Source: Trypanosoma brucei
Taxonomy: Eukaryota
Direction of reading: 5' to 3'
Assembly: GCA_000002445.1 (NCBI GenBank)
Contig: CM000207.1
Coordinates: 1,600,001 to 1,664,000 of the forward strand
DNA: 64,000 nucleotides
Shown: positions 2,421 to 35,985 of the stretch, piece by piece
Position numbering within the stretch: position 1 is the first letter of the stretch
Layout of the letters: every line of letters starts with the position of its first letter
Position numbers and translations under genes: made by a program
Notes under the pieces: model-generated
The model's input: only the letters and a program-made list of their open reading frames with translations
What the model was told of the DNA's origin: nothing
Database searches by the model: none

Positions 2421-5400
2421 CTACCTCGAAGAATAAGAATAACCGCTGGTACCCGTCTGCAATCTTCTCAACGTGCCGCGTAAGGCGTTTATTTCCTCTA
2501 CTTTTGCCTGCAGGTCCCTGCGCAACTCATCAATTCCGCTCTTACGTTCGTGTCGGTTAGCATATATTTTTTCCATTTCGTAAAAGTTACATTCTTCTAG
2601 ACGCCTTGCAATCTCTTCCGTCGTTATAGATGGGTCATGCCTCAAGTCAAACGTCACATGAAGCTCAACACCATCATCGCGGTAGTCAACATCCAATACA
2701 TAATCCTCAGGTAAGTGGCAAGCAGCTGCTACGTCATGCACGATGGCGTTCACGAGAGCTTCCGGTGTGTTGGCCGCCACTAAACCCCAGTCGTCTCCAG
2801 GGAACTTTTTAGAGTGAAATGTCGTGTGTTGCGAACTTGTTGTCCGCGGGCGCCAGCGCTCGTCATGTAGCAATGCATCTTCCAGAGCATCAGCAGCAGT
2901 CTTCAGACACATTTCAAGCATCCTCGCCTCTGATGCGTGCATATCGCGGTCTGCCTCCAGAGTGGCTCGATTGGCCTTAAGTTGCTCTATATAAGTACAG
3001 AGAGCAGTGAAAACGCCACCAGAGTGGTCAACACCCTCTTCCTCTAACAAGTTAATCAACCACTGATCCTGTACTGTGTTCGCAGAGTTGAACGTTTCGG
3101 CCACTTCGGTAGTTTGTTGCTCATCGTCGCCATCCATGAAGTCCATACCAGACTTTTTACTGTTGGGCCTCCGCGCACCGTGAACATCTGCGTCCTTGTT
3201 GCCATCGGTTGCTCGCTTCAGTGCTTTTGTTAGTGCCTCCACTTCGGCTTGCAGTACTTGTACCTCCTCATCCAGCTCCGTGCGTTGATTGGTCACCTGC
3301 TCCAAGTCCAGGAGAAGGGTTTCCTCCTTTTTCTCCAACTCCCGACACTTTTGTTGCTCACGCGTGAGCAGCTCTTGGATTAGTTCACGGTCGTACATTG
3401 CCTCAACCAAACGATCTTTAATCAGAATTACATCGTTGTCACCCACGTCATCCACGACATTCTTCAAACGCTCTAAGGCGTGAGTTTGAGCATGAGCATC
3501 CCTCCTCGTGGTTATGCGAGATGTTCGATGCTCCGTGCACTCATCACTCCGCTCAGAAAAGAGGTGTGTGCTCGGTAGTCGCGAGGCGCCAAGTTCCATC
3601 ATCGCCTGCTCTACATCTAGTAAGCATGAGTGAAGGTCTTCCTTTTCAACGTATTGCTGGTGCTTCAAGGGTCCTTCCTGAGTCCGACTCAAGCACTCTC
3701 GAAGGATAGAAAGCGCCCTCTGTTGGCAACCCTCTAAGTTTGAGACTTCACGCTGGAGGGCAATGGTTTCCTTGACGTATTCCGCTTTTAATTCGTTTAG
3801 AGCCATATCATTTGAGCTTCGTGTCTCCCGCAGCTGCAACATGAACCGCTCCTGTATTTCTATTGTGCCGAGGCGCATACGGTTTACCTCTTCGTCCTGC
3901 AGTAGGCAAAGTATGCGGAAGTTCAGTCCACAACCCCGATTTACCCTCCTTTCGCTGTCTTCATCTGATCTACTCCTCACATGTTTCTTAAGACTCTTCG
4001 TCTCTTCCTCAGTCTTGCCCCACACATCCCGAAGTTCATCCTCCTTTTCTCTGAGATGGCCCTCCAGCTCATTGATGCGCTTCATAGCTCTCGACAGCTT
4101 CCTCTCGGAGTCGGCTGACTTCGAGGAAATGTTATTTGGGCGATCCCTGAGGCTGGTGGTGTCGCGGTGCATGATCTTCCAACGTTCGGCTGTAAACATC
4201 TGGTGAAGGTCGAAGAGTGATCCCAACTCCCGTGCAACCAGACGCAAACGCTCAATCGACTGATTGCAGAATATATGTGTTAAGCCAGTTGGTGCGGTAG
4301 AGACATAGGACTCAGTGACGTGTCGATCCCCAGCAACACGAGTTGCGACATTTGACCCGCGAGGAGTGCCCCGAAGCTGCTTCGACGCTGCACTCCGGAT
4401 TTGCGCAATACTATCCCGCTTAAGAATCATCTCCCTTGACTTCAAGGGGCCTGTAAGTGGTATCAGTTTGCAGAAGATAGACATTTGGAGTACCACTACT
4501 TTTTCGTCTGTGCGCACGAAGGATATTTCTCCTGATTCACTAAAGCTCCGAACAGTCATTTTAACACTGTCTTCACCATCTCTCCCCGAAAAGGGCCTCA
4601 CCCTCGTACTTGAGTTTCCACTCCGGAGCGAAGCAGAAAATTTGCTGCCCTGTGCGCCCATTGTGTCCGACAACTGGTCGTCGATCATCCGGAGGGAGGC
4701 ACGAGCCTTGTAGAGATAAACTTCGCTTGTCACCCACTTTTGAAGGAGCCCAGCGAGACGATTGTTGGCACTCACCACTGTGAAGTCAAAGAGGCGATCG
4801 CTCAAATATTTTTCATTTAGAGCATCAGCCAGTGCGTCATCCATGCGAACGGCATTTGGATCTGAGAGAAGGTCTGTAAATGCGCTAGAAGCCATGAACC
4901 GCTTCATCTGATCCCATTCATCGCTTTCAGATGAGGCCACCAGCTCAATGCACAAGAGTTCAAAAACTGCTCTCACTGCGCGCAACACAGCCTTTGGGGC
5001 CTCCTTCAGTCTCATCAACTCTTTCCACGATTCACGACTTATGTTTCGTATATCTTTCCTAATCCCCTCAACGATATTTTCTCTGCGCATAACATCATGC
5101 ACATACAATTCACGCGATATCCTCTCTCGTCTTTCCTGGGCTGTCTCCACCACCCTTTCCTCCCGCTCAGGCACATCATCCTTTGAATTCCAAACAACCT
5201 TCCAGCACAACAGTGATACGAGTCCGGGATCCGTTACAGCTGGGCTGCTGCCAACACCATCAGCGGTGGCACCATCGGAAACAACCGTGCCAATAGCCCA
5301 CATCCATTTCCCCTTGGAAACAAATTGGAAAGCCACAATACTACCCTCGGCGATATGTGTTTTTTCATCAACCGTCTCCACATAAACAGAGGTATACTCC

Positions 5401-19754: not shown

Positions 19755-22022
19755 TCATTTCAGCAAAGGGTAGTTTGTGTAACTGACACCATCCTTCAGG
19801 ATTCTAGAAATTGTTAAAGCAATATACGACATCCAAAAAATCACAAAGAACAAAATCTCACCACGCATCCAATACCGTGGCACAAACAGCATCGAGAAAC
19901 TCACAAGGGTCGCTAGCACTGCAGCTGCCATACCACCAAGTACCATTCTGTTGAGCCCTGAAAAGTTACGGGAAAATGGACTCTCAAATTGAGTGTGGAA
20001 AAGAGCAGGATCATGCTGACACGTGAGTAGAGAAACGGCATCCTGTTTCTGTCCATCAAAGAAATTTTGTTGCCACCAGCGGCGCAGTGCGATTCGCACC
20101 ACATCAAACGTGGCCGGTCCCCATTCCCCAGTTAGTAGAAAGTCCACAAAATGGGGGTCGCTTCCAGCGTACAACCTGGAAAGTGAAATTCCCAGTTCAA
20201 CCCACATATGCTTACATCTCTCTACGCTGCAATGAAACTCACCATTCCCTCGCGCTCCGTCACTTCCATCATCCTCATCTTCATACTCATCCTCATCGTC
20301 ACTGAGGTTCATTTCTTCCCCATGCCCAAGTACATACCTAATCATCTGAGGAAGAATGTTAATAGCAATCATGGACTGAACAAGGTTTGTCCGATCCAAG
20401 CAATCCAAACAGTTCACCCGAACGTAATGTTTCTGCTGGTGGACAAGAACCAACTCGCAAGTCGCCCCGTCAGCATCAGCGGTGCTGGGAACAGATGGAG
20501 GCGATGACCCACTCGATGGAGACGGATGTCCTTCATTGCTAAACTTCCAAAAATCTACGAACTGCGATCCACCTTCGTTTTTCCTATTTAGCAGAGTATC
20601 AACTTCCATTCGCATTAAGTTGTAAGGCGCATTTTTAGCCCTCCGTTCCTTTACGTTGTATTTTGTATAATAAACGTCAACGGGCCTTGAGAGAGCGCCA
20701 TTCCCTTCACGAAGTTTTAATGCCGCTGCTTCGAACGCCTTTGAAATTGGCAACTCGGCTTTGCTAAGCGACGTGGTGTCAAGACAATGGATAGATGTCA
20801 TCCCATCGAATAAAGCCAAAAGGGCATTTAAATGCAAGACCAGTTCATCAACCCCTGACGATGGCGAAGATATGGTAATCGTGGGGATGAATGTTAAATT
20901 CGCTGGCTGACTCCAGCAACGAGGCACAGAACCACGAAGAATGGTAAAGGCTGCCACGCGCTGCTTTTCATTAGCGGCCTTATCCCCCTCGTTTCCCGAC
21001 GCTAAAGGAAAGACCCAAAGCGTTGATGCAGAAAAGTTCGCTGCAATCCCACTACCAGCATTGTCAAGCCCACGCCGATTGTATCGCGTACCCGCCCACC
21101 GGTAACTAAGGCGATTGATGAGCAACATCTGAACACCCTCCTCGGGGGAAGTAGTCGCCTCCACAATACCCCTAATAAACGCAGGAACGTACACGTGGTA
21201 ATCACAATTCAGCGAAGCTACAACCTCATCAAACGCACCAAGCAGAGGCGAATTCCACTGGAAAACCACCCGCTGCGATATTTGTCCCTCGGAAGAAATC
21301 GCTAAAGAAAAGGCGCCACCACCCTTCACGCTGCTGCCATTCAACGACGGCGTGAGTACCTCCTTCATACCCTTCACAACATCACCAGGTTCCAGGGTTA
21401 AGTTCGCAGTCGGTGAATAGTAAAAATAAGAAGCACCGCAATGTTGCTCCGACTGCGCACAAAAGCTATCGACAACCCTACAATACTCTAAAACCATTTC
21501 TTCCCTGGCATGGCTTTGTGAAGAACCCTGCGAAGCGCTTGCTTCATCTTTCTCGCCTGAACCACCATCACCACCGTCCCCACTCTTATTCACGGACAGG
21601 TCAGACGCTGTTTCCGGTAGTCGAAGCCACGACAGCTGCTTTACCGCAAACACGTCGTGGGTCTCCCCAATAGTTAATGTGGTAATACGTTCCCGTTCAG
21701 AAACATACAAAAGTATCGACGCAGAGCCAATGCGAAGAACACCAAATAAAGCATAACAGGGAATACAACGGACCGGTGTAAACTCTTCAAATCCAGAGGA
21801 GGAAGCATCGGACATAACTCCATCATCAACCACATCACAAACCGCCTTTTCAGAATCTTTGCTAACATGAGAAACGGCATCATCCGCAGCCACATTACTC
21901 GGCAACACGAAACATTGACGCTCCAAATTCCAAATAAGTCTGGGATAAGAATCATCATTAGGGACAAAAGAGGCAGATTCACCATCAATAACGATATTTC
22001 CAAAAAAATCCCCTACAGACAT
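19755..22022 (-). CDS. SAC1: Sac1-type phosphoinositide phosphatase (SAC domain) with C-terminal transmembrane anchor
   Basis: Catalytic CX5R(T/S) motif in VRVNCLDCLDRTNLVQS. Upstream block RLSYRWAGTRYNRRGLDNAGSGIAANF is characteristic of the SAC domain. Two hydrophobic helices lie at the C-terminus (MVLGGMAAAVLATLVSFSMLFV, ILFFVIFWMSYIALTI). Confidence 0.8.
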   Translation of the reverse strand: MSVGDFFGNIVIDGESASFVPNDDSYPRLIWNLERQCFVLPSNVAADDAVSHVSKDSEKAVCDVVDDGVMSDASSSGFEEFTPVRCIPCYALFGVLRIGSASILLYVSERERITTLTIGETHDVFAVKQLSWLRLPETASDLSVNKSGDGGDGGSGEKDEASASQGSSQSHAREEMVLEYCRVVDSFCAQSEQHCGASYFYYSPTANLTLEPGDVVKGMKEVLTPSLNGSSVKGGGAFSLAISSEGQISQRVVFQWNSPLLGAFDEVVASLNCDYHVYVPAFIRGIVEATTSPEEGVQMLLINRLSYRWAGTRYNRRGLDNAGSGIAANFSASTLWVFPLASGNEGDKAANEKQRVAAFTILRGSVPRCWSQPANLTFIPTITISSPSSGVDELVLHLNALLALFDGMTSIHCLDTTSLSKAELPISKAFEAAALKLREGNGALSRPVDVYYTKYNVKERRAKNAPYNLMRMEVDTLLNRKNEGGSQFVDFWKFSNEGHPSPSSGSSPPSVPSTADADGATCELVLVHQQKHYVRVNCLDCLDRTNLVQSMIAINILPQMIRYVLGHGEEMNLSDDEDEYEDEDDGSDGARGNGEFHCSVERCKHMWVELGISLSRLYAGSDPHFVDFLLTGEWGPATFDVVRIALRRWWQQNFFDGQKQDAVSLLTCQHDPALFHTQFESPFSRNFSGLNRMVLGGMAAAVLATLVSFSMLFVPRYWMRGEILFFVIFWMSYIALTISRILKDGVSYTNYPLLK

Positions 22023-22320: not shown

Positions 22321-24584
22321 AACACCCAAACACTTACTCAGAAGTCAAACAGACAAAATTAACTGATGTCAGCATCAAATAAATTCAGCTGAAACACGGA
22401 TTTGACAGACTCATCATTGACACAAAACAAGGTAAGAGCAACACCACCAAACAGTTCAGAGCAGGAATAAGAAGGAGGGCGGCATGTACATATGTGTGTG
22501 GGGTAATGTTGGTGTAATGGGGAAAAGGTGAGAAAGTTACCGTACGCCTCGGACGCAGGACGCACGCGGCTGGAATGTTGTGCGGCGCCCCAGAAACTAT
22601 CGTAACACTCGTGCTCAATCCATGTTCGGGTGTGTGTCATAAGACCGTCGTAAGTGGTTTATCGTCATGGGCAAAGTACAAGGTGTATCCGCAGTGACCA
22701 AAGAGACAATGCAGAATCTGGCAAAGAGAAAGGGCGAAAGCCAAGCAATAAGGGTGGTTTCAAATGTAAAACAAGGAAAAAGGGAGGGGAGGGGGGTGAC
22801 AGTAACCACACACATGGTATGATAACGTGCCACGACGAAACCAAACACCATCAGCCGGGGAAAGAAGAATATTCTTTAAATGGGTTATTGTCATTCAAAT
22901 ACACTCAGAGACTCCAGTCCATTGATGTCATCAAGTAGCGCGTTTACGACAGGTTAGGTGTACCGCAAAGCAACTCTCGGAGCGCACCAAGATGGCCTAC
23001 GGCATGCAATCACAAAACGGCCGCTCCATGGCTAAAGCCCCTTTTTCATTTTTGTTGTCCATAAAAACACTGAAGGGAGAAAACAGAGGAAGGAGAAGGT
23101 AACAATATCAAACAAGAGAAGAGTGTGCACTAACCAATAACCTCCGTTATAATTCTCGGACCACGTGAGTGTGCAAACAAGGACACAGAAATGTTAGCCC
23201 AAGACACAACTCCAATGTGGGCCTTCCCCTACGGTTACTGCCCCAACACATAATTGTAATTATAATAATAACCATAATCATAATTATACACCTGACGTCA
23301 AGTGAAAAAAACTCGGCGCGTCAGAAACAATATTAGCGTCACGGGTTCTGTTCAGATGTTGCTGTTAATTTGTTATATTAGGTATTCATCACACGCACCT
23401 ACTCGCCGAACTGCTAACCCCACACGTCAGCTCGGAGCGAAAGATAGAGTTCACAGTTGCATCGACATAGTGTGTTTCCGTTCCGCCTACGCGGTATCGG
23501 AAGCTCTTTCATCAGTGGCGGGGAACGACGGATGGGGGATAAACACTTAACAGAGGGGAAAATGTGCATGAAATAGGTAATACAATAAGAGAAGGGGGAA
23601 GTAAACAGGGAATCACGGAAGTAAGGTTCAGTGCAGGTCTGTGTTATGGTGTCCTCACAGGTTCTCGGTGCAATTTGAACATATTGTACATCGTCACCTA
23701 CTACATTCCCTCTCGACTACCCCGCCACTCACAACATTATACTGCCGCCCACATTAGCCATTCCAAACTCACTGCGGTAATGTATCCTCGTGTGTGCTTG
23801 CGTGTATATGTGTATATATGTGTATGTGTATGGAGTCGCGCCCAAGTGCCCGAGGTTGAGTACCTGAAGGACACGATAGCCATCAGACCCGAAAGGTGAT
23901 TTGTGTTGTATAGATCCCTCATGAATATGACGTCGGAACATGTTTGGACGCTCAACTAGTTTCCATCATCGGCCACACACATACACAAACATACAAGCAC
24001 ACACACACACACACACACTCACATATATATATATATATATACATACACGACAAACCTCCGCACACCCAAACACTTACTCAGAAGTCAAACAGACAAAATT
24101 AACTGATGTCAGCATCAAATAAATTCAGCTGAAACACGGATTTGACAGACTCATCATTGACACAAAACAAGGTAAGAGCAACACCACCAAACAGTTCAGA
24201 GCAGGAATAAGAAGGAGGGCGGCATGTACATATGTGTGTGGGGTAATGTTGGTGTAATGGGGAAAAGGTGAGAAAGTTACCGTACGCCTCGGACGCAGGA
24301 CGCACGCGGCTGGAATGTTGTGCGGCGCCCCAGAAACTATCGTAACACTCGTGCTCAATCCATGTTCGGGTGTGTGTCATAAGACCGTCGTAAGTGGTTT
24401 ATCGTCATGGGCAAAGTACAAGGTGTATCCGCAGTGACCAAAGAGACAATGCAGAATCTGGCAAAGAGAAAGGGCGAAAGCCAAGCAATAAGGGTGGTTT
24501 CAAATGTAAAACAAGGAAAAAGGGAGGGGAGGGGGGTGACAGTAACCACACACATGGTATGATAACGTGCCACGACGAAACCAA

Positions 24585-24680
24585 ACACCATCAGCCGGGG
24601 AAAGAAGAATATTCTTTAAATGGGTTATTGTCATTCAAATACACTCAGAGACTCCAGTCCATTGATGTCATCAAGTAGCG
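24585..24680 (-). ncRNA. Weaker box C/D snoRNA-like element 'B' (representative, unit 2). Same position in all 8 copies, at unit offset ~522-617.
   Basis: Minus-strand reading: UUGAUGA-(19 nt)-CUGA-(10 nt)-AUGA-(35 nt)-CUGA. C, D', degenerate C' and D in canonical order, ~82 nt C-to-D. No clear terminal stem. Confidence 0.3.
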
Positions 24681-25054
24681 CGTTTACGACAGGTTAGGTG
24701 TACCGCAAAGCAACTCTCGGAGCGCACCAAGATGGCCTACGGCATGCAATCACAAAACGGCCGCTCCATGGCTAAAGCCCCTTTTTCATTTTTGTTGTCC
24801 ATAAAAACACTGAAGGGAGAAAACAGAGGAAGGAGAAGGTAACAATATCAAACAAGAGAAGAGTGTGCACTAACCAATAACCTCCGTTATAATTCTCGGA
24901 CCACGTGAGTGTGCAAACAAGGACACAGAAATGTTAGCCCAAGACACAACTCCAATGTGGGCCTTCCCCTACGGTTACTGCCCCAACACATAATTGTAAT
25001 TATAATAATAACCATAATCATAATTATACACCTGACGTCAAGTGAAAAAAACTC

Positions 25055-25139
25055 GGCGCGTCAGAAACAATATTAGCGTCACGGGTTCTGTTCAGATGTT
25101 GCTGTTAATTTGTTATATTAGGTATTCATCACACGCACC
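25055..25139 (-). ncRNA. Box C/D snoRNA-like element 'D', representative copy in unit 2. The same element is present in units 1-7 at 23315-23399, 25055-25139, 26807-26891, 28553-28637, 30293-30377, 32033-32117, 33771-33855.
   Basis: Minus-strand reading: 5'-GGUGCG-U-GUGAUGA-(30 nt)-CUGA-(27 nt)-CUGA-CGCGCC-3'. Canonical C box (RUGAUGA), D' and D boxes (CUGA). The 6-bp terminal stem GGUGCG/CGCGCC (one G.U) flanks the C and D boxes directly. Size ~85 nt. Not verified against rRNA targets. Confidence 0.5.
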
Positions 25140-25157
25140 TACTCGCCGAACTGCTAA

Positions 25158-25263
25158 CCCCACACGTCAGCTCGGAGCGAAAGATAGAGTTCACAGTTGC
25201 ATCGACATAGTGTGTTTCCGTTCCGCCTACGCGGTATCGGAAGCTCTTTCATCAGTGGCGGGG
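25158..25263 (-). ncRNA. Box C/D snoRNA-like element 'C', representative copy in unit 2. The same element is present in units 1-7 at 23418-23523, 25158-25263, 26910-27015, 28656-28761, 30396-30501, 32136-32241, 33874-33979.
   Basis: Minus-strand reading: 5'-CCCCGC-CAC-UGAUGA-(~85 nt)-CUGA-CGU-GUGGGG-3'. C box UGAUGA and D box CUGA are bracketed by a 6-bp terminal stem CCCCGC/GUGGGG (one G.U). Lies immediately upstream (in the minus sense) of element D. Confidence 0.45.
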
Positions 25264-28200
25264 AACGACGGATGGGGGATAAACACTTAACAGAGGGGAA
25301 AATGTGCATGGAATAGGTAATACAATAAGAGAAGGGGGAAGTAAACAGGGAATCACGGAAGTAAGGTTCAGTGCAGGTCTGTGTTATGGTGTCCTCACAG
25401 GTTCTCGGTGCAATTTGAACATATTGTACATCGTCACCCACTACATTCCCTCTCGACTACCCCGCCACTCACAACATTATACTGCCGCCCACATTAGCCA
25501 TTCCAAACTCACTGCGGTAATGTATCCTCGTGTGTGCTTGCGTGTATATGTGTATATATGTGTATATATGTGTATGTGTATGGAGTCGCGCCCAAGTGCC
25601 CGAGGTTGAGTACCTGAAGGACACGATAGCCATCAGACCCGAAAGGTGATTTGTGTTGTATAGATCCCTCATGAATATGACGTCGGAACATGTTTGGACG
25701 CTCAACTAGTTTCCATCATCGGCCACACACATACACAAACATACAAGCACACACACATACACACACTCACATATATATATATATATATATATACATACAC
25801 GACAAACCTCCGCACACCCAAACACTTACTCAGAAGTCAAACAGACAAAATTAACTGATGTCAGCATCAAATAAATTCAGCTGAAACACGGATTTGACAG
25901 ACTCATCATTGACACAAAACAAGGTAAGAGCAACACCACCAAACAGTTCAGAGCAGGAATAAGAAGGAGGGCGGCATGTACATATGTGTGTGGGGTAATC
26001 TTGGTGTAATGGGGAAAAGGTGAGAAAGTTACCGTACGCCTCGGACGCAGGACGCACGCGGCTGGAATGTTGTGCGGCGCCCCAGAAACTATCGTAACAC
26101 TCGTGCTCAATCCATGTTCGGGTGTGTGTCATAAGACCGTCGTAAGTGGTTTATCGTCATGGGCAAAGTACAAGGTGTATCCGCAGTGACCAAAGAGACA
26201 ATGCAGAATCTGGCAAAGAGAAAGGGCGAAAGCCAAGCAATAAGGGTGGTTTCAAATGTAAAACAAGGAAAAAGGGAGGGGAGGGGGGTGACAGTAACCA
26301 CACACATGGTATGATAACGTGCCACGACGAAACCAAACACCATCAGCCGGGGAAAGAAGAATATTCTTTAAATGGGTTATTGTCATTCAAATACACTCAG
26401 AGACTCCAGTCCATTGATGTCATCAAGTAGCGCGTTTACGACAGGTTAGGTGTACCGCAAAGCAACTCTCGGAGCGCACCAAGATGGCCTACGGCATGCA
26501 ATCACAAAACGGCCGCTCCATGGCTAAAGCCCCTTTTTCATTTTTGTTGTCCATAAAAACACTGAAGGGAGAAAACAGAGGAAGGAGAAGGTAACAATAT
26601 CAAACAAGAGAAGAGTGTGCACTAACCAATAACCTCCGTTATAATTCTCGGACCACGTGAGTGTGCAAACAAGGACACAGAAATGTTAGCCCAAGACACA
26701 ACTCCAATGTGGGCCTTCCCCTACGGTTACTGCCCCAACACATAATTGTAATTATAATAATAACCATAATCATAATTATACACCTGACGTCAAGTGAAAA
26801 AAACTCGGCGCGTCAGAAACAATATTAGCGTCACGGGTTCTGTTCAGATGTTGCTGTTAATTTGTTATATTAGGTATTCATCACACGCACCTACTCGCCG
26901 AACTGCTAACCCCACACGTCAGCTCGGAGCGAAAGATAGAGTTCACAGTTGCATCGACATAGTGTGTTTCCGTTCCGCCTACGCGGTATCGGAAGCTCTT
27001 TCATCAGTGGCGGGGAACGACGGATGGGGGATAAACACTTAACAGAGGGGAAAATGTGCATGGAATAGGTAATACAATAAGAAAAGGGGGAAGTAAACAG
27101 GGAATCACGGAAGTAAGGTTCAGTGCAGGTCTGTGTTATGGTGTCCTCACAGGTTCTCGGTGCAATTTGAACATATTGTACATCGTCACCCACTACATTC
27201 CCTCTCGACTACCCCGCCACTCACAACATTATACTGCCGCCCACATTAGCCATTCCAAACTCACTGCGGTAATGTATCCTCGTGTGTGCTTGCGTGTATA
27301 TGTGTATATATGTGTATGTGTATGGAGTCGCGCCCAAGTGCCCGAGGTTGAGTACCTGAAGGACACGATAGCCATCAGACCCGAAAGGTGATTTGTGTTG
27401 TATAGATCCCTCATGAATATGACGTCGGAACATGTTTGGACGCTCAACTAGTTTCCATCATCGGCCACACACATACACAAACATACAAGCACACACACAC
27501 ACACACACACTCACATATATATATATATATATACATATATATACACGACAAACCTCCGCACACCCAAACACTTACTCAGAAGTCAAACAGACAAAATTAA
27601 CTGATGTCAGCATCAAATAAATTCAGCTGAAACACGGATTTGACAGACTCATCATTGACACAAAACAAGGTAAGAGCAACACCACCAAACAGTTCAGAGC
27701 AGGAATAAGAAGGAGGGCGGCATGTACATATGTGTGTGGGGTAATCTTGGTGTAATGGGGAAAAGGTGAGAAAGTTACCGTACGCCTCGGACGCAGGACG
27801 CACGCGGCTGGAATGTTGTGCGGCGCCCCAGAAACTATCGTAACACTCGTGCTCAATCCATGTTCGGGTGTGTGTCATAAGACCGTCGTAAGTGGTTTAT
27901 CGTCATGGGCAAAGTACAAGGTGTATCCGCAGTGACCAAAGAGACAATGCAGAATCTGGCAAAGAGAAAGGGCGAAAGCCAAGCAATAAGGGTGGTTTCA
28001 AATGTAAAACAAGGAAAAAGGGAGGGGAGGGGGGTGACAGTAACCACACACATGGTATGATAACGTGCCACGACGAAACCAAACACCATCAGCCGGGGAA
28101 AGAAGAATATTCTTTAAATGGGTTATTGTCATTCAAATACACTCAGAGACTCCAGTCCATTGATGTCATCAAGTAGCGCGTTTACGACAGGTTAGGTGTA

Positions 28201-31200
28201 CCGCAAAGCAACTCTCGGAGCGCACCAAGATGGCCTACGGCATGCAATCACAAAACGGCCGCTCCATGGCTAAAGCCCCTTTTTCATTTTTGTTGTCCAT
28301 AAAAACACTGAAGGGAGAAAACAGAGGAAGGAGAAGGTAACAATATCAAACAAGAGAAGAGTGTGCACTAACCAATAACCTCCGTTATAATTCTCGGACC
28401 ACGTGAGTGTGCAAACAAGGACACAGAAATGTTAGCCCAAGACACAACTCCGATGTGGGCCTTCCCCTACGGTTACTGCCCCAACACATAATTGTAATTA
28501 TAATAATAACCATAATCATAATTATACACCTGACGTCAAGTGAAAAAAACTCGGCGCGTCAGAAACAATATTAGCGTCACGGGTTCTGTTCAGATGTTGC
28601 TGTTAATTTGTTATATTAGGTATTCATCACACGCACCTACTCGCCGAACTGCTAACCCCACACGTCAGCTCGGAGCGAAAGATAGAGTTCACAGTTGCAT
28701 CGACATAGTGTGTTTCCGTTCCGCCTACGCGGTATCGGAAGCTCTTTCATCAGTGGCGGGGAACGACGGATGGGGGATAAACACTTAACAGAGGGGAAAA
28801 TGTGCATGGAATAGGTAATACAATAAGAGAAGGGGGAAGTAAACAGGGAATCACGGAAGTAAGGTTCAGTGCAGGTCTGTGTTATGGTGTCCTCACAGGT
28901 TCTCGGTGCAATTTGAACATATTGTACATCGTCACCCACTACATTCCCTCTCGACTACCCCGCCACTCACAACATTATACTGCCGCCCACATTAGCCATT
29001 CCAAACTCACTGCGGTAATGTATCCTCGTGTGTGCTTGCGTGTATATGTGTATATATGTGTATGTGTATGGAGTCGCGCCCAAGTGCCCGAGGTTGAGTA
29101 CCTGAAGGACACGATAGCCATCAGACCCGAAAGGTGATTTGTGTTGTATAGATCCCTCATGAATATGACGTCGGAACATGTTTGGACGCTCAACTAGTTT
29201 CCATCATCGGCCACACACATACACAAACATACAAGCACACACACACACACACACACTCACATATATATATATATATATACATACACGACAAACCTCCGCA
29301 CACCCAAACACTTACTCAGAAGTCAAACAGACAAAATTAACTGATGTCAGCATCAAATAAATTCAGCTGAAACACGGATTTGACAGACTCATCATTGACA
29401 CAAAACAAGGTAAGAGCAACACCACCAAACAGTTCAGAGCAGGAATAAGAAGGAGGGCGGCATGTACATATGTGTGTGGGGTAATCTTGGTGTAATGGGG
29501 AAAAGGTGAGAAAGTTACCGTACGCCTCGGACGCAGGACGCACGCGGCTGGAATGTTGTGCGGCGCCCCAGAAACTATCGTAACACTCGTGCTCAATCCA
29601 TGTTCGGGTGTGTGTCATAAGACCGTCGTAAGTGGTTTATCGTCATGGGCAAAGTACAAGGTGTATCCGCAGTGACCAAAGAGACAATGCAGAATCTGGC
29701 AAAGAGAAAGGGCGAAAGCCAAGCAATAAGGGTGGTTTCAAATGTAAAACAAGGAAAAAGGGAGGGGAGGGGGGTGACAGTAACCACACACATGGTATGA
29801 TAACGTGCCACGACGAAACCAAACACCATCAGCCGGGGAAAGAAGAATATTCTTTAAATGGGTTATTGTCATTCAAATACACTCAGAGACTCCAGTCCAT
29901 TGATGTCATCAAGTAGCGCGTTTACGACAGGTTAGGTGTACCGCAAAGCAACTCTCGGAGCGCACCAAGATGGCCTACGGCATGCAATCACAAAACGGCC
30001 GCTCCATGGCTAAAGCCCCTTTTTCATTTTTGTTGTCCATAAAAACACTGAAGGGAGAAAACAGAGGAAGGAGAAGGTAACAATATCAAACAAGAGAAGA
30101 GTGTGCACTAACCAATAACCTCCGTTATAATTCTCGGACCACGTGAGTGTGCAAACAAGGACACAGAAATGTTAGCCCAAGACACAACTCCAATGTGGGC
30201 CTTCCCCTACGGTTACTGCCCCAACACATAATTGTAATTATAATAATAACCATAATCATAATTATACACCTGACGTCAAGTGAAAAAAACTCGGCGCGTC
30301 AGAAACAATATTAGCGTCACGGGTTCTGTTCAGATGTTGCTGTTAATTTGTTATATTAGGTATTCATCACACGCACCTACTCGCCGAACTGCTAACCCCA
30401 CACGTCAGCTCGGAGCGAAAGATAGAGTTCACAGTTGCATCGACATAGTGTGTTTCCGTTCCGCCTACGCGGTATCGGAAGCTCTTTCATCAGTGGCGGG
30501 GAACGATGGATGGGGGATAAACACTTAACAGAGGGGAAAATGTGCATGGAATAGGTAATACAATAAGAGAAGGGGGAAGTAAACAGGGAATCACGGAAGT
30601 AAGGTTCAGTGCAGGTCTGTGTTATGGTGTCCTCACAGGTTCTCGGTGCAATTTGAACATATTGTACATCGTCACCCACTACATTCCCTCTCGACTACCC
30701 CGCCACTCACAACATTATACTGCCGCCCACATTAGCCATTCCAAACTCACTGCGGTAATGTATCCTCGTGTGTGCTTGCGTGTATATGTGTATATATGTG
30801 TATGTGTATGGAGTCGCGCCCAAGTGCCCGAGGTTGAGTACCTGAAGGACACGATAGCCATCAGACCCGAAAGGTGATTTGTGTTGTATAGATCCCTCAT
30901 GAATATGACGTCGGAACATGTTTGGACGCTCAACTAGTTTCCATCATCGGCCACACACATACACAAACATACAAGCACACACACACACACACACTCACAT
31001 ATATATATATATATATATACATACACGACAAACCTCCGCACACCCAAACACTTACTCAGAAGTCAAACAGACAAAATTAACTGATGTCAGCATCAAATAA
31101 ATTCAGCTGAAACACGGATTTGACAGACTCATCATTGACACAAAACAAGGTAAGAGCAACACCACCAAACAGTTCAGAGCAGGAATAAGAAGGAGGGCGG

Positions 31201-34200
31201 CATGTACATATGTGTGTGGGGTAATGTTGGTGTAATGGGGAAAAGGTGAGAAAGTTACCGTACGCCTCGGACGCAGGACGCACGCGGCTGGAATGTTGTG
31301 CGGCGCCCCAGAAACTATCGTAACACTCGTGCTCAATCCATGTTCGGGTGTGTGTCATAAGACCGTCGTAAGTGGTTTATCGTCATGGGCAAAGTACAAG
31401 GTGTATCCGCAGTGACCAAAGAGACAATGCAGAATCTGGCAAAGAGAAAGGGCGAAAGCCAAGCAATAAGGGTGGTTTCAAATGTAAAACAAGGAAAAAG
31501 GGAGGGGAGGGGGGTGACAGTAACCACACACATGGTATGATAACGTGCCACGACGAAACCAAACACCATCAGCCGGGGAAAGAAGAATATTCTTTAAATG
31601 GGTTATTGTCATTCAAATACACTCAGAGACTCCAGTCCATTGATGTCATCAAGTAGCGCGTTTACGACAGGTTAGGTGTACCGCAAAGCAACTCTCGGAG
31701 CGCACCAAGATGGCCTACGGCATGCAATCACAAAACGGCCGCTCCATGGCTAAAGCCCCTTTTTCATTTTTGTTGTCCATAAAAACACTGAAGGGAGAAA
31801 ACAGAGGAAGGAGAAGGTAACAATATCAAACAAGAGAAGAGTGTGCACAAACCAATAACCTCCGTTATAATTCTCGGACCACGTGAGTGTGCAAACAAGG
31901 ACACAGAAATGTTAGCCCAAGACACAACTCCAATGTGGGCCTTCCCCTACGGTTACTGCCCCAACACATAATTGTAATTATAATAATAACCATAATCATA
32001 ATTATACACCTGACGTCAAGTGAAAAAAACTCGGCGCGTCAGAAACAATATTAGCGTCACGGGTTCTGTTCAGATGTTGCTGTTAATTTGTTATATTAGG
32101 TATTCATCACACGCACCTACTCGCCGAACTGCTAACCCCACACGTCAGCTCGGAGCGAAAGATAGAGTTCACAGTTGCATCGACATAGTGTGTTTCCGTT
32201 CCGCCTACGCGGTATCGGAAGCTCTTTCATCAGTGGCGGGGAACGACGGATGGGGGATAAACACTTAACAGAGGGGAAAATGTGCATGGAATAGGTAATA
32301 CAATAAGAGAAGGGGGAAGTAAACAGGGAATCACGGAAGTAAGGTTCAGTGCAGGTCTGTGTTATGGTGTCCTCACAGGTTCTCGGTGCAATTTGAACAT
32401 ATTGTACATCGTCACCCACTACATTCCCTCTCGACTACCCCGCCACTCACAACATTATACTGCCGCCCACATTAGCCATTCCAAACTCACTGCGGTAATG
32501 TATCCTCGTGTGTGCTTGCGTGTATATGTGTATATATGTGTATGTGTATGGAGTCGCGCCCAAGTGCCCGAGGTTGAGTACCTGAAGGACACGATAGCCA
32601 TCAGACCCGAAAGGTGATTTGTGTTGTATAGATCCCTCATGAATATGACGTCGGAACATGTTTGGACGCTCAACTAGTTTCCATCATCGGCCACACACAT
32701 ACACAAACATACAAGCACACACACATACACACACTCACATATATATATATATATATACATACACGACAAACCTCCGCACACCCAAACACTTACTCAGAAG
32801 TCAAACAGACAAAATTAACTGATGTCAGCATCAAATAAATTCAGCTGAAACACGGATTTGACAGACTCATCATTGACACAAAACAAGGTAAGAGCAACAC
32901 CACCAAACAGTTCAGAGCAGGAATAAGAAGGAGGGCGGCATGTACATATGTGTGTGGGGTAATGTTGGTGTAATGGGGAAAAGGTGAGAAAGTTACCGTA
33001 CGCCTCGGACGCAGGACGCACGCGGCTGGAATGTTGTGCGGCGCCCCAGAAACTATCGTAACACTCGTGCTCAATCCATGTTCGGGTGTGTGTCATAAGA
33101 CCGTCGTAAGTGGTTTATCGTCATGGGCAAAGTACAAGGTGTATCCGCAGTGACCAAAGAGACAATGCAGAATCTGGCAAAGAGAAAGGGCGAAAGCCAA
33201 GCAATAAGGGTGGTTTCAAATGTAAAACAAGGAAAAAGGGAGGGGAGGGGGGTGACAGTAACCACACACATGGTATGATAACGTGCCACGACGAAACCAA
33301 ACACCATCAGCCGGGGAAAGAAGAATATTCTTTAAATGGGTTATTGTCATTCAAATACACTCAGAGACTCCAGTCCATTGATGTCATCAAGTAGCGCGTT
33401 TACGACAGGTTAGGTGTACCGCAAAGCAACTCTCGGAGCGCACCAAGATGGCCTACGGCATGCAATCACAAAACGGCCGCTCCATGGCTAAAGCCCCTTT
33501 TTCATTTTTGTTGTCCATAAAAACACTGAAGGGAGAAAACAGAGGAAGGAGAAGGTAACAATATCAAACAAGAGAAGAGTGTGCACTAACCAATAACCTC
33601 CGTTATAATTCTCGGACCACGTGAGTGTGCAAACAAGGACACAGAAATGTTAGCCCAAGACACAACTCCAATGTGGGCCTTCCCCTACGGTTACTGCCCC
33701 AACACATAATTGTAATTATAATAATAACCATAATCATAATTATACACCTGACGTCAAGTGAAAAAAACTCGGCGCGTCAGAAACAATATTAGCGTCACGG
33801 GTTCTGTTCAGATGTTGCTGTTAATTTGTTATATTAGGTATTCATCACACGCACCTACTCGCCGAACTGCTAACCCCACACGTCAGCTCGGAGCGAAAGA
33901 TAGAGTTCACAGTTGCATCGACATAGTGTGTTTCCGTTCCGCCTACGCGGTATCGGAAGCTCTTTCATCAGTGGCGGGGAACGACGGATGGGGGATAAAC
34001 ACTTAACAGAGGGGAAAATGTGCATGAAATAGGTAATACAATAAGAGAAGGGGGAAGTAAACAGGGAATCACGGAAGTAAGGTTCAGTGCAGGTCTGTGT
34101 TATGGTGTCCTCACAGGTTCTCGGTGCAATTTGAACATATTGTACATCGTCACCCACTACATTCCCTCTCGACTACCCCGCCACTCACAACATTATACTG

Positions 34201-35985
34201 CCGCCCACATTAGCCATTCCAAACTCACTGCGGTAATGTATCCTCGTGTGTGCTTGCGTGTATATGTGTATATATGTGTATGTGTATGGAGTCGCGCCCA
34301 AGTGCCCGAGGTTGAGTACCTGAAGGACACGATAGCCATCAGACCCGAAAGGTGATTTGTGTTGTATAGATCCCTCATGAATATGACGTCGGAACATGTT
34401 TGGACGCTCAACTAGTTTCCATCATCGGCCACACACATACACAAACATACAAGCACACACACACACACACACACTCACATATATATATATATATATACAT
34501 ACACGACAAACCTCCGCACACCCAAACACTTACTCAGAAGTCAAACAGACAAAATTAACTGATGTCAGCATCAAATAAATTCAGCTGAAACACGGATTTG
34601 ACAGACTCATCATTGACACAAAACAAGGTAAGAGCAACACCACCAAACAGTTCAGAGCAGGAATAAGAAGGAGGGCGGCATGTACATATGTGTGTGGGGT
34701 AATGTTGGTGTAATGGGGAAAAGGTGAGAAAGTTACCGTACGCCTCGGACGCAGGACGCACGCGGCTGGAATGTTGTGCGGCGCCCCAGAAACTATCGTA
34801 ACACTCGTGCTCAATCCATGTTCGGGTGTGTGTCATAAGACCGTCGTAAGTGGTTTATCGTCATGGGCAAAGTACAAGGTGTATCCGCAGTGACCAAAGA
34901 GACAATGCAGAATCTGGCAAAGAGAAAGGGCGAAAGCCAAGCAATAAGGGTGGTTTCAAATGTAAAACAAGGAAAAAGGGAGGGGGGGTGACAGCAACCA
35001 CACACATGGTATGATAACGTGCCACGACGAAACCAAACACCATCAGCCGGGGAAAGAAGAATATTCTTTAAATGGGTTATTGTCATTCAAATACACTCAG
35101 AGACTCCAGTCCATTGATGTCATCAAGTAGCGCGTTTACGACAGGTTAGGTGTACCGCAAAGCAACTCTCGGAGCGCACCAAGATGGCCTACGGCATGCA
35201 ATCACAAAACGGCCGCTCCATGGCTAAAGCCCCTTTTTCATTTTTGTTGTCCATAAAAACACTGAAGGGAGAAAACAGAGGAAGGAGAAGGTAACAATAT
35301 CAAACAAGAGAAGAGTGTGCACTAACCAATAACCTCCGTTATAATTCTCGGACCACGTGAGTGTGCAAACAAGGACACAGAAATGTTAGCCCAAGACACA
35401 ACTCCAATGTGTCGCATTTTTTTTCGTAATATAGTTTTTGAAAGTTTATTCAAATTTTTTGGAAGAAGGCTGAGTTGTTGCAGGTTCTTTACCTATGATA
35501 GGTCATATTGCTGATTATATTTTTTGTTCAATTGTTTTTTGTGTATAGAATGATTTCTCCTTTTTTATTTTTTTTCACCAAGTGGCTTGATAATTTTGGT
35601 GGAACCAACTGTTTTTTTTTTTTTCGCATGATATATTGTTAATAAGTTGAAACTCAAAAGTAAATGAGTAGGGTAACCATTATTTTGTGATAACTGCACG
35701 TAGCTTCGCTATAGTTGAAGCATCGATGTGCCCTTTTTCATTACTTTTTTTTTTACGTTTCTTGCATTGTTTAGCAATTGAGTATCGATTTTGTGTCCGC
35801 TTCCGATATTACTTTGGCAGGGTCAGTGATGTGGTTTAACAAAAAGGAAAAAATCAGCTGAATGGTGTTGTTTACTTGTTTGATGCCATTACCACTTGTT
35901 TTTTATTTTCGCTGTTGCATCATATCGCAGCTGTTCTCGCTGCCGTTTGATTATCACTCTCTTGATGTAGTTGGTAGTAACGTTT

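What the first reader, a model, noticed from the sequence alone, without database searches (positions are those of the whole stretch)
24063..24700. Additional weaker snoRNA-like motifs in the first third of each unit (possible multi-snoRNA cluster)
On the minus strand at unit offset ~522-617 there is UUGAUGA-(19)-CUGA-(10)-AUGA-(35)-CUGA (C/D'/C'/D in order, ~82 nt). At offset ~45-100 there is AUGAUGAG-(22)-CUGA-(6)-UUGAUGC-UGA, which is too compact and weak. Trypanosomatid snoRNA repeats usually hold 2-6 snoRNAs mixing C/D and single-hairpin H/ACA-like (AGA box) species. The remaining ~1 kb of the unit could hold H/ACA-like RNAs, which I cannot call by eye.
Basis: seen in the sequence. Interest (0 to 1): 0.5.

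Follow-up and report, generated by a model that had tools for sequence, protein, structure and literature searches.

The report
Known trypanosome snoRNA genes TB9Cs2C7/C1/C2
The two "weak" motifs are real but already described: they are the Trypanosoma brucei guide RNAs TB9Cs2C7 and TB9Cs2C2, which direct methylation of ribosomal RNA, and a third known gene (TB9Cs2C1) lies between them.

Summary
The box pattern occurs 16 times in the window, all inside the array, against 0.26 expected by chance. The array (22322 to about 35411, minus strand) is the T. brucei chromosome-9 snoRNA cluster TB9Cs2: Rfam finds TB9Cs2H1 8 times, and nine published T. brucei oligos match exactly.

Motif A (24680-24585) is a canonical C/D snoRNA. 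In a kinetoplastid rDNA contig its two guides pair with LSU sites 26 nt apart (a G and a U). That matches the published TB9Cs2C7 targets, LSU-beta Gm659 and Um685.

Motif B is the 5' two-thirds of TB9Cs2C2 (24163-24072). The true D box is 24081-24078. Its guides hit an A and a C 17 nt apart, matching LSU-alpha Am743 and Cm760.

A syntenic T. cruzi array conserves exactly nine islands, which fits the 7 C/D and 2 H/ACA-like genes named for this cluster in the papers read. The spacers do not align.

That one is probably TB9Cs2C1, with odd boxes AUGACGA and CCGA.

No H/ACA-like RNA lies inside the span. Two lie just 5' of it: H1, and a hairpin at 24781-24712 that is probably H2.

Nothing new here; interest is low.

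The parts
24585..24680 (-). Motif A = C/D snoRNA gene TB9Cs2C7 (about 96 nt with terminal stem). The other 7 copies, C box to D box, are at 22851-22933, 26343-26425, 28089-28171, 29829-29911, 31569-31651, 33307-33389 and 35043-35125.
   Evidence: Box pattern. Conserved in T. cruzi L012 and L013; alignment z=24.7 against about 0 for spacers. Guide targets.
24668..24674 (-). C7 C box UUGAUGA (GUGAUGA in T. cruzi). The 5' stem arm CGCUA (24680-24676) pairs with UGGUG (24590-24586).
   Evidence: The terminal stem is kept by different sequences in T. cruzi (GCCG/CGGC).
24649..24667 (-). C7 D' guide CAUCAAUGGACUGGAGUCU, followed by the D' box CUGA at 24648-24645.
   Evidence: GACUGGAGUCU is invariant in three trypanosomes. 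It pairs with GACUCCAGUCUG in L018, with the U at LSU:2700 opposite position 5.
24631..24637 (-). C7 C' box UGAAUGA.
   Evidence: Invariant in T. brucei, T. cruzi and L013.
24591..24608 (-). C7 D guide UCUUCUUUCCCCGG (24608-24595) plus the D box CUGA (24594-24591).
   Evidence: Invariant in three species. It pairs with CGGGGAAAGAAGA in L018, with the G at LSU:2674 opposite position 5; 0 of 100 shuffles did as well. That G is 26 nt 5' of the D' target, as for the published LSU-beta G659/U685.
24285..24412 (-). C box AUGACGA 24408-24402; antisense CUUACGACGGUCU 24394-24382; D'-like AUGA 24380-24377; conserved internal hairpin 24331-24297; D-like CCGA 24292-24289.
   Evidence: 84% identical to T. 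cruzi over 124 nt; z=29.2. Covariation in the hairpin and terminal stem across three species. The antisense element pairs with AGACCGUCGUGAG in L018, with the C at LSU:3366 opposite position 5. The published target of C1 is a C in LSU-beta.
24072..24163 (-). Motif B extended = C/D snoRNA gene TB9Cs2C2 (about 90 nt). The other copies, C box to D box, are at 22338-22416, 25830-25908, 27576-27654, 29316-29394, 31056-31134, 32794-32872 and 34534-34612.
   Evidence: Conserved in T. cruzi units 1 and 3; z=15.3.
24125..24157 (-). C2 C box AUGAUGA (24157-24151), D' antisense UCCGUGUUUCAG (24140-24129) and D' box CUGA (24128-24125).
   Evidence: The antisense element pairs with UUGAAACACGGA in L018, with the A at LSU:663 opposite position 5. 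It is conserved in T. cruzi.
24109..24115 (-). C2 C' box AUGCUGA.
   Evidence: GAUGCUGA is conserved between T. brucei and T. cruzi.
24078..24095 (-). C2 D antisense UGUCUGUUUGACUU (24095-24082) plus the true D box CUGA (24081-24078).
   Evidence: A 20-nt block UUUGUCUGUUUGACUUCUGA is invariant between T. brucei and T. cruzi. It pairs with GAGUCAAACAGACA in L018, with the C at LSU:680 opposite position 5, 17 nt 3' of A663, as for the published A743/C760. GGAGTCAAACAGAC is part of a pan-Kinetoplastida 28S primer.
24712..24781 (-). H/ACA-like single hairpin with an AGA box (24717-24715) 3 nt from the inferred 3' end; probably TB9Cs2H2. It lies just outside the finding's span.
   Evidence: Conserved in T. 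cruzi (z=17.5). The lower stem GGGGC/GCUCC becomes GGGAC/GUCCC, one compensatory change plus one half change. The 3' pocket strand starts 14 nt before AGA. No target was verified.
24894..24963 (-). H/ACA-like snoRNA TB9Cs2H1. It serves as the anchor that identifies the cluster.
   Evidence: Rfam RF01554, 86.8 bits, E=1e-16, 8 copies.
22322..35411 (-). The whole tandem array: 7 full units of 1736-1752 bp plus a partial unit at the 5' (high-coordinate) end. Units are 98.7-99.1% identical.

Best explanation
The finding's span covers three genes of the tandemly repeated snoRNA cluster TB9Cs2 of a Trypanosoma brucei-type chromosome 9. All three are on the minus strand.

Motif A is TB9Cs2C7, a box C/D guide RNA. 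The guide upstream of its D box pairs with CGGGGAAAGAAGA of the large-subunit rRNA. The guide upstream of its D' box pairs with GACUCCAGUC 26 nt further 3'. By the fifth-nucleotide rule these place 2'-O-methyl groups on LSU-beta G659 and U685.

Motif B is the 5' part of TB9Cs2C2. Its D' guide pairs with UUGAAACACGGA (Am743). Its D guide, which ends at the CUGA at 24081-24078, pairs with GAGUCAAACAGAC (Cm760).

Between them lies a longer C/D-type RNA at 24412-24285 with degenerate boxes, probably TB9Cs2C1. Papers link that RNA to LSU processing and to a Cm in LSU-beta.

Shown here: the boxes, the conservation, guide complementarity to a kinetoplastid rRNA, and target spacings equal to the published sites.

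Taken from papers: that the sites are methylated, and the snoRNA names.

Inferred from general trypanosomatid biology: that the array is transcribed as one precursor and cut into individual snoRNAs that assemble with fibrillarin/NOP1.
For: 1. Cluster identity. Rfam TB9Cs2H1 hits 8 times at 70.5-86.8 bits. Nine published T. brucei oligos for TB9Cs2C3 and TB9Cs2C5 match exactly, 7 copies each.

2. Papers list C1-C7, H1 and H2 for this cluster. C7 is assigned LSUb_659 G and LSUb_685 U. C2 is assigned LSUa_742/743 A and LSUa_760 C.

3. Guides were tested against a kinetoplastid rDNA contig, L018. For all 10 guides with a good match, the nucleotide opposite position 5 has the published identity. 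The spacings also equal the published ones: C7 26 nt, C2 17 nt, C3 11 nt, and C3 to C5 103 nt.

4. Two sequences predicted from the guides exist in real LSU rRNAs. The 35-mer from the C7 guides plus the conserved linker was found in 11 metagenome LSU contigs. The 28-mer from the C2 guides was found in 3 kinetoplastid-type LSU contigs, and it overlaps a pan-Kinetoplastida 28S primer.

5. A syntenic T. cruzi array upstream of the same SAC-domain gene has nine conserved islands in the same order. Boxes and antisense elements are invariant, terminal stems are kept by compensatory changes, and spacers do not align: z is 15-29 for snoRNAs against about 0 for spacers.

6. The box pattern is far above chance.
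Against: No T. brucei rRNA sequence was available. Complementarity was tested on a distant kinetoplastid (bodonid-like) rDNA, so only the conserved 10-14 bp cores were checked.

Taken one at a time, several guide scores are not extreme against shuffled guides (C7 D' 10/100, C2 D' 10/100). The strength comes from the paired hits and their spacings.

No published sequence or coordinate for C2, C7 or C1 was held in the paper library. These three names rest on matching targets and on elimination, not on sequence identity to a deposited record.

The C2 terminal stem is only about 3 bp.

Expression was not tested here.
Confidence: 0.93

Rival explanations
1. The motifs are chance matches to short box consensus sequences in repeated spacer DNA, and look impressive only because the unit is copied 8 times.
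For: The boxes are short. The copies are not independent (99% identical units), so eightfold recurrence proves nothing. MFE folding is no better than for shuffles.
Against: The expected number of pattern matches in a 1.74-kb unit is about 0.007 (0.26 per 64 kb), and two are seen. Boxes and guides are conserved in T. cruzi and L013 while flanking spacers are not. Both guides of each RNA hit rRNA sites at the published spacing. Weak MFE folding is normal for guide snoRNAs, whose guides stay unpaired.
Confidence: 0.01
2. Motif B is a compact snoRNA of about 56 nt as the reader delimited it (C box, D', then UUGAUGC-UGA as C'/D), or a decayed pseudogene.
For: A CUGA does overlap the UUGAUGC motif (GAUGCUGA, 24116-24109). 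One T. cruzi unit carries a decayed C2 copy.
Against: The 12 nt upstream of that CUGA have no rRNA match better than chance (45 of 100 shuffles did as well). The 20 nt ending in the CUGA at 24078 are invariant between T. brucei and T. cruzi, and they pair with the kinetoplastid-specific GAGUCAAACAGACA exactly 17 nt from the D' target. All 8 T. brucei copies are intact and identical.
Confidence: 0.03
3. The RNAs are real C/D snoRNAs, but the names are misassigned: A and B are other members of the cluster, or members not in the published list.
For: No deposited sequence of C2, C7 or C1 could be compared. Targets reported in the papers for H1 and H2 could not be reproduced with L018. That shows the names and targets in those papers do not always map cleanly.
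Against: All seven C/D islands map one-to-one onto the seven published target sets, with the right nucleotide and spacing. C3 and C5 are pinned by exact published oligos. The gene order C1-C2-C3-C4-C5-(C6)-H1-(H2)-(C7) would fit numbering along the unit with C6 and C7 added later (my inference).
Confidence: 0.04

Closest known systems
TB9Cs2C7 (T. brucei C/D snoRNA guiding LSU-beta Gm659 and Um685)
   Same: It sits in the TB9Cs2 repeat. The two guides pair with a G and a U 26 nt apart in the GGGGAAAGAAGACCCUGUUGAGYUUGACUCC segment of the LSU. The box order is the canonical C/D'/C'/D.
   Different: Nothing detected. Identity to the published sequence could not be checked because it is not in the held library.
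TB9Cs2C2 (T. brucei C/D snoRNA guiding LSU-alpha Am742/743 and Cm760). The Cm760 site corresponds to yeast Cm663 (snR58), from my own knowledge.
   Same: The D' guide pairs with UUGAAACACGGA and the D guide with GAGUCAAACAGAC, 17 nt apart. It lies directly 5' of TB9Cs2C3, whose published silencing primer starts at 24074.
   Different: The C' box is AUGCUGA and the terminal stem is short.
TB9Cs2C1 (abundant T. brucei snoRNA implicated in srRNA-2/LSU processing, predicted Cm in LSU-beta; PMC3273796)
   Same: It is a conserved island in the expected slot between C7 and C2. Its antisense element to AGACCGUCGUGAG puts a C opposite position 5. It is long (about 128 nt) with extra conserved segments, as expected for a processing snoRNA.
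   Different: The boxes are degenerate (AUGACGA, AUGA, CCGA). The assignment is by elimination and target type only.
Trypanosomatid H/ACA-like single-hairpin AGA-box snoRNAs (TB9Cs2H1, Rfam RF01554; TB9Cs2H2)
   Same: H1 matches Rfam. The hairpin at 24781-24712 has the single hairpin, an AGA 3 nt from the end and a pocket 14 nt before AGA.
   Different: None lies inside 24063-24700. The targets reported in the papers (H1: psi518 in H69; H2: an snR37-type site) were not reproduced with the rDNA available.

Membership tests
Box C/D snoRNA (2'-O-methylation guide) | C box RUGAUGA near the 5' end and D box CUGA near the 3' end | tested here: met
   C7 has UUGAUGA and CUGA. C2 has AUGAUGA and CUGA (at 24081-24078). 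The C1 candidate has only degenerate AUGACGA and CCGA; the GA dinucleotides are kept.
Box C/D snoRNA (2'-O-methylation guide) | Short terminal stem that brings the C and D boxes together | tested here: met
   C7 has 5 bp (CGCUA/UGGUG), replaced by GCCG/CGGC in T. cruzi. C1 has 4-5 bp with covariation. C2 has only about 3 bp, which is weak.
Box C/D snoRNA (2'-O-methylation guide) | Internal D' and C' boxes | tested here: met
   C7 has CUGA and UGAAUGA. C2 has CUGA and AUGCUGA. All are conserved in T. cruzi.
Box C/D snoRNA (2'-O-methylation guide) | At least 10 nt of antisense sequence directly upstream of D or D', with the modified rRNA nucleotide opposite position 5 | tested here: met
   Tested against kinetoplastid rDNA L018. 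C7 D has 13 bp (G2674) and C7 D' 12 bp (U2700). C2 D' has 12 bp (A663) and C2 D 14 bp (C680). Nucleotide identities and spacings equal the published Nm sites. T. brucei rRNA itself was not available.
Box C/D snoRNA (2'-O-methylation guide) | Stable small RNA bound by fibrillarin/NOP1, NOP56/58 and Snu13 | not testable with these tools
   Papers name C2 and C7 as guides of RiboMeth-seq sites. No expression data were analysed here.
TB9Cs2 cluster of T. brucei | Linked in one repeat unit with TB9Cs2H1, C3 and C5 | tested here: met
   Rfam RF01554 hits 8 times. Published C3 and C5 oligos match exactly in every full unit.
TB9Cs2 cluster of T. brucei | Sequence identity to the published TB9Cs2C2, C7 and C1 sequences | not tested
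   Liang et al. 2005 is not held. No supplement with these sequences was available.
Trypanosomatid H/ACA-like (AGA-box) snoRNA, within 24063-24700 | Single hairpin of about 70 nt with AGA 3 nt from the 3' end, conserved between species | tested here: not met
   The only conserved islands in the span are the three C/D genes. Rfam at E<=10 gives no H/ACA hit there. H/ACA-like RNAs lie outside the span at 24963-24894 and 24781-24712.
Trypanosomatid H/ACA-like (AGA-box) snoRNA, hairpin 24781-24712 | Bipartite pocket complementary to rRNA flanking a U, 14-16 nt before AGA | tested here: inconclusive
   The pocket geometry fits: the 3' pocket strand starts 14 nt before AGA. The best L018 match is 8+4 bp at LSU:1151. 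No match was found to the site reported for H2.

The most novel reading that the evidence does not exclude
Some conserved parts of these RNAs are not explained by the known methylation targets. Examples are the invariant AGAAUAYUC 5' of the C7 D guide, and the conserved loop ACAAYAUUCCAGC and hairpin of C1. The C2 D-guide region also has a 21-bp match (3 G:U, 1 mismatch) to a second LSU-alpha stretch in L018 (LSU:1121-1141). That stretch lies 2 nt from the best match of the neighbouring H/ACA-like hairpin's pocket. These could mark extra, undescribed base-pairing roles in trypanosome-specific rRNA processing, with snoRNAs of one cluster acting together on one rRNA segment.
Probability: 0.07. 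Interest if true: 0.4.

Novelty: already known. Interest (0 to 1): 0.1.

Why it matters
It matters little for discovery, because these are catalogued T. brucei snoRNAs with assigned rRNA methylation sites. The useful outcome is a clean annotation of the repeat unit. Nine snoRNA genes now have box and guide coordinates. One boundary is corrected (C2), and one gene the motif scan missed is placed (probably C1). The T. cruzi comparison also shows that interspecies footprinting separates snoRNA genes from spacers very sharply in these arrays.

Tried and rejected
- Rfam at gathering and at E<=10 finds only H1. The C/D genes give just sub-threshold generic hits (SNORD126-like at 24107-24162, E=1.1; SNORD96-like for C6).
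- MFE folding with shuffles does not discriminate these RNAs (z from -1.2 to +1.6).
- Liang et al. 2005 and the supplement of the NAR 2012 paper are not held, so no published C2, C7 or C1 sequences could be compared.
- The metagenome scan returned 11 eukaryotic LSU contigs, but none kinetoplastid. L008 was rejected as a reference.
- Loci L015 and L016, and the look-up for T. congolense P0002, gave no orthologous array. L013 and L014 are cut by contig ends.
- I looked for a guide in the unit for the snR37-type site reported for TB9Cs2H2 and found nothing convincing.
- I looked for an H69 (psi518) match for H1; it was not among the top hits.
The 12 nt before the nearer CUGA have no rRNA match above chance.
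- ORFs in the span are all under 100 aa and were not pursued.
Full report
**What is in the sequence**

The window holds a tandem array on the minus strand from 22322 to about 35411. It has seven full units of 1736-1752 bp plus a partial unit at the high-coordinate end, and the units are 98.7-99.1% identical.

Both motif strings of the finding are present at the stated offsets, with spacers off by one nucleotide. Both are identical in all eight copies.

The generic pattern TGATGA-N12-30-CTGA-N30-60-CTGA occurs 16 times in the 64 kb window. All 16 are these two loci in their eight copies. Dinucleotide shuffles give 0.26 on average, and none of 100 reached 16. Because the copies are not independent, the real count is two hits in one 1.74-kb unit, where about 0.007 would be expected.

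**Which locus this is**

Rfam finds the trypanosomatid H/ACA-like snoRNA TB9Cs2H1 (RF01554) once per unit: 86.8 bits in six copies, 83.9 and 70.5 in the other two.

Nine oligonucleotides published for T. brucei TB9Cs2C3 and TB9Cs2C5 match the window exactly, once in each full unit. They are silencing primers, northern primers and a biotinylated antisense probe.

So the array is the T. brucei-type chromosome-9 cluster TB9Cs2. The papers I could read name seven C/D snoRNAs (C1-C7) and two H/ACA-like snoRNAs (H1, H2) for this cluster. They assign these targets:

| snoRNA | Published target |
|---|---|
| C1 | LSU-beta C1413 |
| C2 | LSU-alpha A742/A743 and C760 |
| C3 | LSU-alpha U914 and G925 |
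| C4 | SSU G1895 |
| C5 | LSU-alpha G1028 |
| C6 | SSU U714 |
| C7 | LSU-beta G659 and U685 |

**Comparison with other trypanosomes**

The gene just downstream of the array (19755-22022, minus strand) encodes a SAC/synaptojanin-N protein with orthologues in other trypanosomes.

The T. cruzi orthologue (L012, CM026627.1) is preceded by a tandem array with a period of about 1545 bp. That array carries TB9Cs2H1 at 88.8 bits.

BLAST of one T. brucei unit against it gives exactly nine conserved islands, in the same order in both species, and nothing else. Their window coordinates are:

- 25254-25167
- 25110-25058
- 24967-24894
- 24783-24585 (two genes)
- 24408-24286
- 24156-24077
- 23979-23878
- 23692-23628

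Global alignment scores against shuffles separate genes from spacers sharply. For the islands near the finding, z is 17.5 (H2 candidate), 24.7 (motif A), 29.2 (the 24412-24285 island) and 15.3 (motif B). For the four spacers between them z runs from -0.7 to 1.5.

Two further trypanosome contigs, L013 and L014, are cut by contig ends but add partial copies.

**Motif A is TB9Cs2C7**

The gene runs from 24680 to 24585 on the minus strand. Its parts are:

- C box UUGAUGA, 24674-24668
- D' guide, 24667-24649
- D' box CUGA, 24648-24645
- C' box UGAAUGA, 24637-24631
- D guide ending at 24595
- D box CUGA, 24594-24591
- a 5-bp terminal stem

In T. cruzi and L013 the boxes are unchanged, as are the guide cores GACUGGAGUCU and UCUUCUUUCCCCGG. 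The terminal stem is rebuilt from other bases, CGCUA/UGGUG becoming GCCG/CGGC.

**Motif B is the 5' part of TB9Cs2C2**

The gene runs from 24163 to 24072. Its parts are:

- C box AUGAUGA, 24157-24151
- D' antisense UCCGUGUUUCAG, 24140-24129
- D' box CUGA, 24128-24125
- C' box AUGCUGA, 24115-24109
- D antisense UGUCUGUUUGACUU, 24095-24082
- D box CUGA, 24081-24078

The block UUUGUCUGUUUGACUUCUGA is invariant between T. brucei and T. cruzi. The published sense primer for the TB9Cs2C3 silencing construct starts at 24074, directly after this gene.

**Guide tests**

No T. brucei rRNA was available, so I used two steps.

First, I predicted rRNA sequences from the guides and scanned public collections for them.

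- The 35-mer built from the C7 guides plus the conserved linker occurs in 11 metagenome LSU contigs. None of these is kinetoplastid.
- The 28-mer GAAACACGGACCAAGGAGTCAAACAGAC, built from the C2 guides, occurs in three contigs binned into bacterial MAGs.
- One of these, L018, carries a complete rDNA unit. Its SSU matches kinetoplastid-specific primers that I recalled from memory.
- The string GGAGTCAAACAGAC lies within the published pan-Kinetoplastida 28S primer F2.

Second, I aligned every guide of the unit to L018, allowing G:U pairs and using shuffled guides as controls. The nucleotide opposite position 5 was:

| Guide | L018 position | Base |
|---|---|---|
| C7 D | LSU:2674 | G |
| C7 D' | LSU:2700 | U |
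| C2 D' | LSU:663 | A |
| C2 D | LSU:680 | C |
| C3 D' | LSU:818 | U |
| C3 D | LSU:829 | G |
| C5 D | LSU:932 | G |
| C4 D | SSU:1750 | G |
| C6 D' | SSU:663 | U |
| C1 | LSU:3366 | C |

All ten bases agree with the published sites. The spacings also equal the published ones:

- 26 nt for C7 (685-659)
- 17 nt for C2 (760-743)
- 11 nt for C3 (925-914)
- 103 nt from C3 to C5 (1028-925)

Single-guide scores are only moderately unusual (0-14 of 100 shuffles did as well). The paired hits at the right spacing are what make the case.

A published primer for LSU-beta 701-719 lines up 15 nt after the U2700 equivalent in L018. This fits the T. brucei numbering. It also fits the idea that the whole 19-nt C7 D' guide pairs in T. 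brucei; that last point is an inference.

The best-conserved island of the unit, at 24412-24285, is 84% identical to T. cruzi and lies inside the finding's span. Its features are:

- degenerate boxes: AUGACGA (24408-24402), AUGA (24380-24377) and CCGA (24292-24289)
- a 23-nt invariant 5' element whose core CUUACGACGGUCU pairs with AGACCGUCGUGAG of the LSU
- an internal hairpin (24331-24297) with covariation across three species
- a terminal stem with covariation

By position, by target type (a C in LSU-beta) and by elimination, this is TB9Cs2C1. Papers link that abundant snoRNA to LSU and srRNA-2 processing.

**H/ACA-like RNAs**

None lies inside 24063-24700. H1 is at 24963-24894.

A second conserved hairpin at 24781-24712 ends in AGA (24717-24715) followed by 3 nt. 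Its pocket starts 14 nt before AGA. Its lower stem shows one compensatory and one half-compensatory change in T. cruzi. It is probably TB9Cs2H2.

I could not confirm a target for it. The best L018 match is GCACCAAG-UG-GGCC at LSU:1151. The snR37-type site given for H2 in a secondary table has no guide in the unit.

**Verdict**

One boundary was corrected and one gene was added. Everything found is already catalogued for T. brucei, so the novelty rating is "already known" and interest is low.

Noticed in passing
window 24285-24412 (-), 8 copies: This is the most conserved island of the unit (84% identity to T. cruzi). It has degenerate C/D boxes (AUGACGA, CCGA) and an internal hairpin with covariation.
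   Followed up: yes
window 24712-24781 (-): A conserved AGA-box single hairpin, probably TB9Cs2H2. Its pocket best matches GCACCAAG-UG-GGCC (L018 LSU:1151), not the snR37-type site listed for H2 in PMC3542256. No guide for that site exists in the unit.
   Followed up: partly
window 24894-24963 (-): The pocket of TB9Cs2H1 best matches GAGUGUG-UA-ACAACUC (L018 LSU:1311, 7+7 bp). The second-best match is a site next to the C7 D' target (LSU:2695). The H69 psi518 site quoted for H1 in PMC10662448 was not among the top hits.
   Followed up: partly
window 24082-24108 (-) versus L018 4881-4901: The C2 D-guide region also has a 21-bp match (3 G:U, 1 mismatch; 0 of 100 shuffles as good) to L018 LSU:1121-1141. 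That is 2 nt from the stretch matched by the H2 candidate's pocket. The match is weaker for the T. cruzi guide, so it may be chance or lineage-specific.
   Followed up: partly
L012 about 5255-5335: One T. cruzi repeat unit carries a decayed C2 copy (C box UUGAGAA, disrupted D' guide, altered C'). Units 1 and 3 are intact.
   Followed up: no
window 23624-23643: The primer published as 'Antisense T7 TB9Cs2C3' (PMC6411936, Table S1) maps to the 3' end of the C4 gene. That northern probe would therefore span both C3 and C4.
   Followed up: no
window 25545-25554 and 25758-25794 (and equivalents): The length differences between units come from (TA)n/(TG)n and (CA)n tracts, which lie in the C3-C4 and C2-C3 spacers respectively. 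Only about a dozen single-base differences exist among the units. One of them lies in H1 (24954 equivalent, the 83.9-bit copy).
   Followed up: partly
window 35346-35415: The 5'-most H1 copy scores lower (70.5 bits), and similarity to the unit stops at 35411. The array boundary therefore falls inside an H1 copy.
   Followed up: no
L018 (RXJO01000217.1), L017, L019: Kinetoplastid-type rDNA contigs are binned in bacterial MAGs (Curvibacter, Hyphomonadaceae, Sphingosinicella). This is eukaryotic contamination of the bins.
   Followed up: no
L014 about 655-680: A short stretch, GGTCAATGGACAGGAGTCT, resembles the C7 D' guide. It lies at the start of a called protein gene downstream of the truncated array and may be a remnant.
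   Followed up: no
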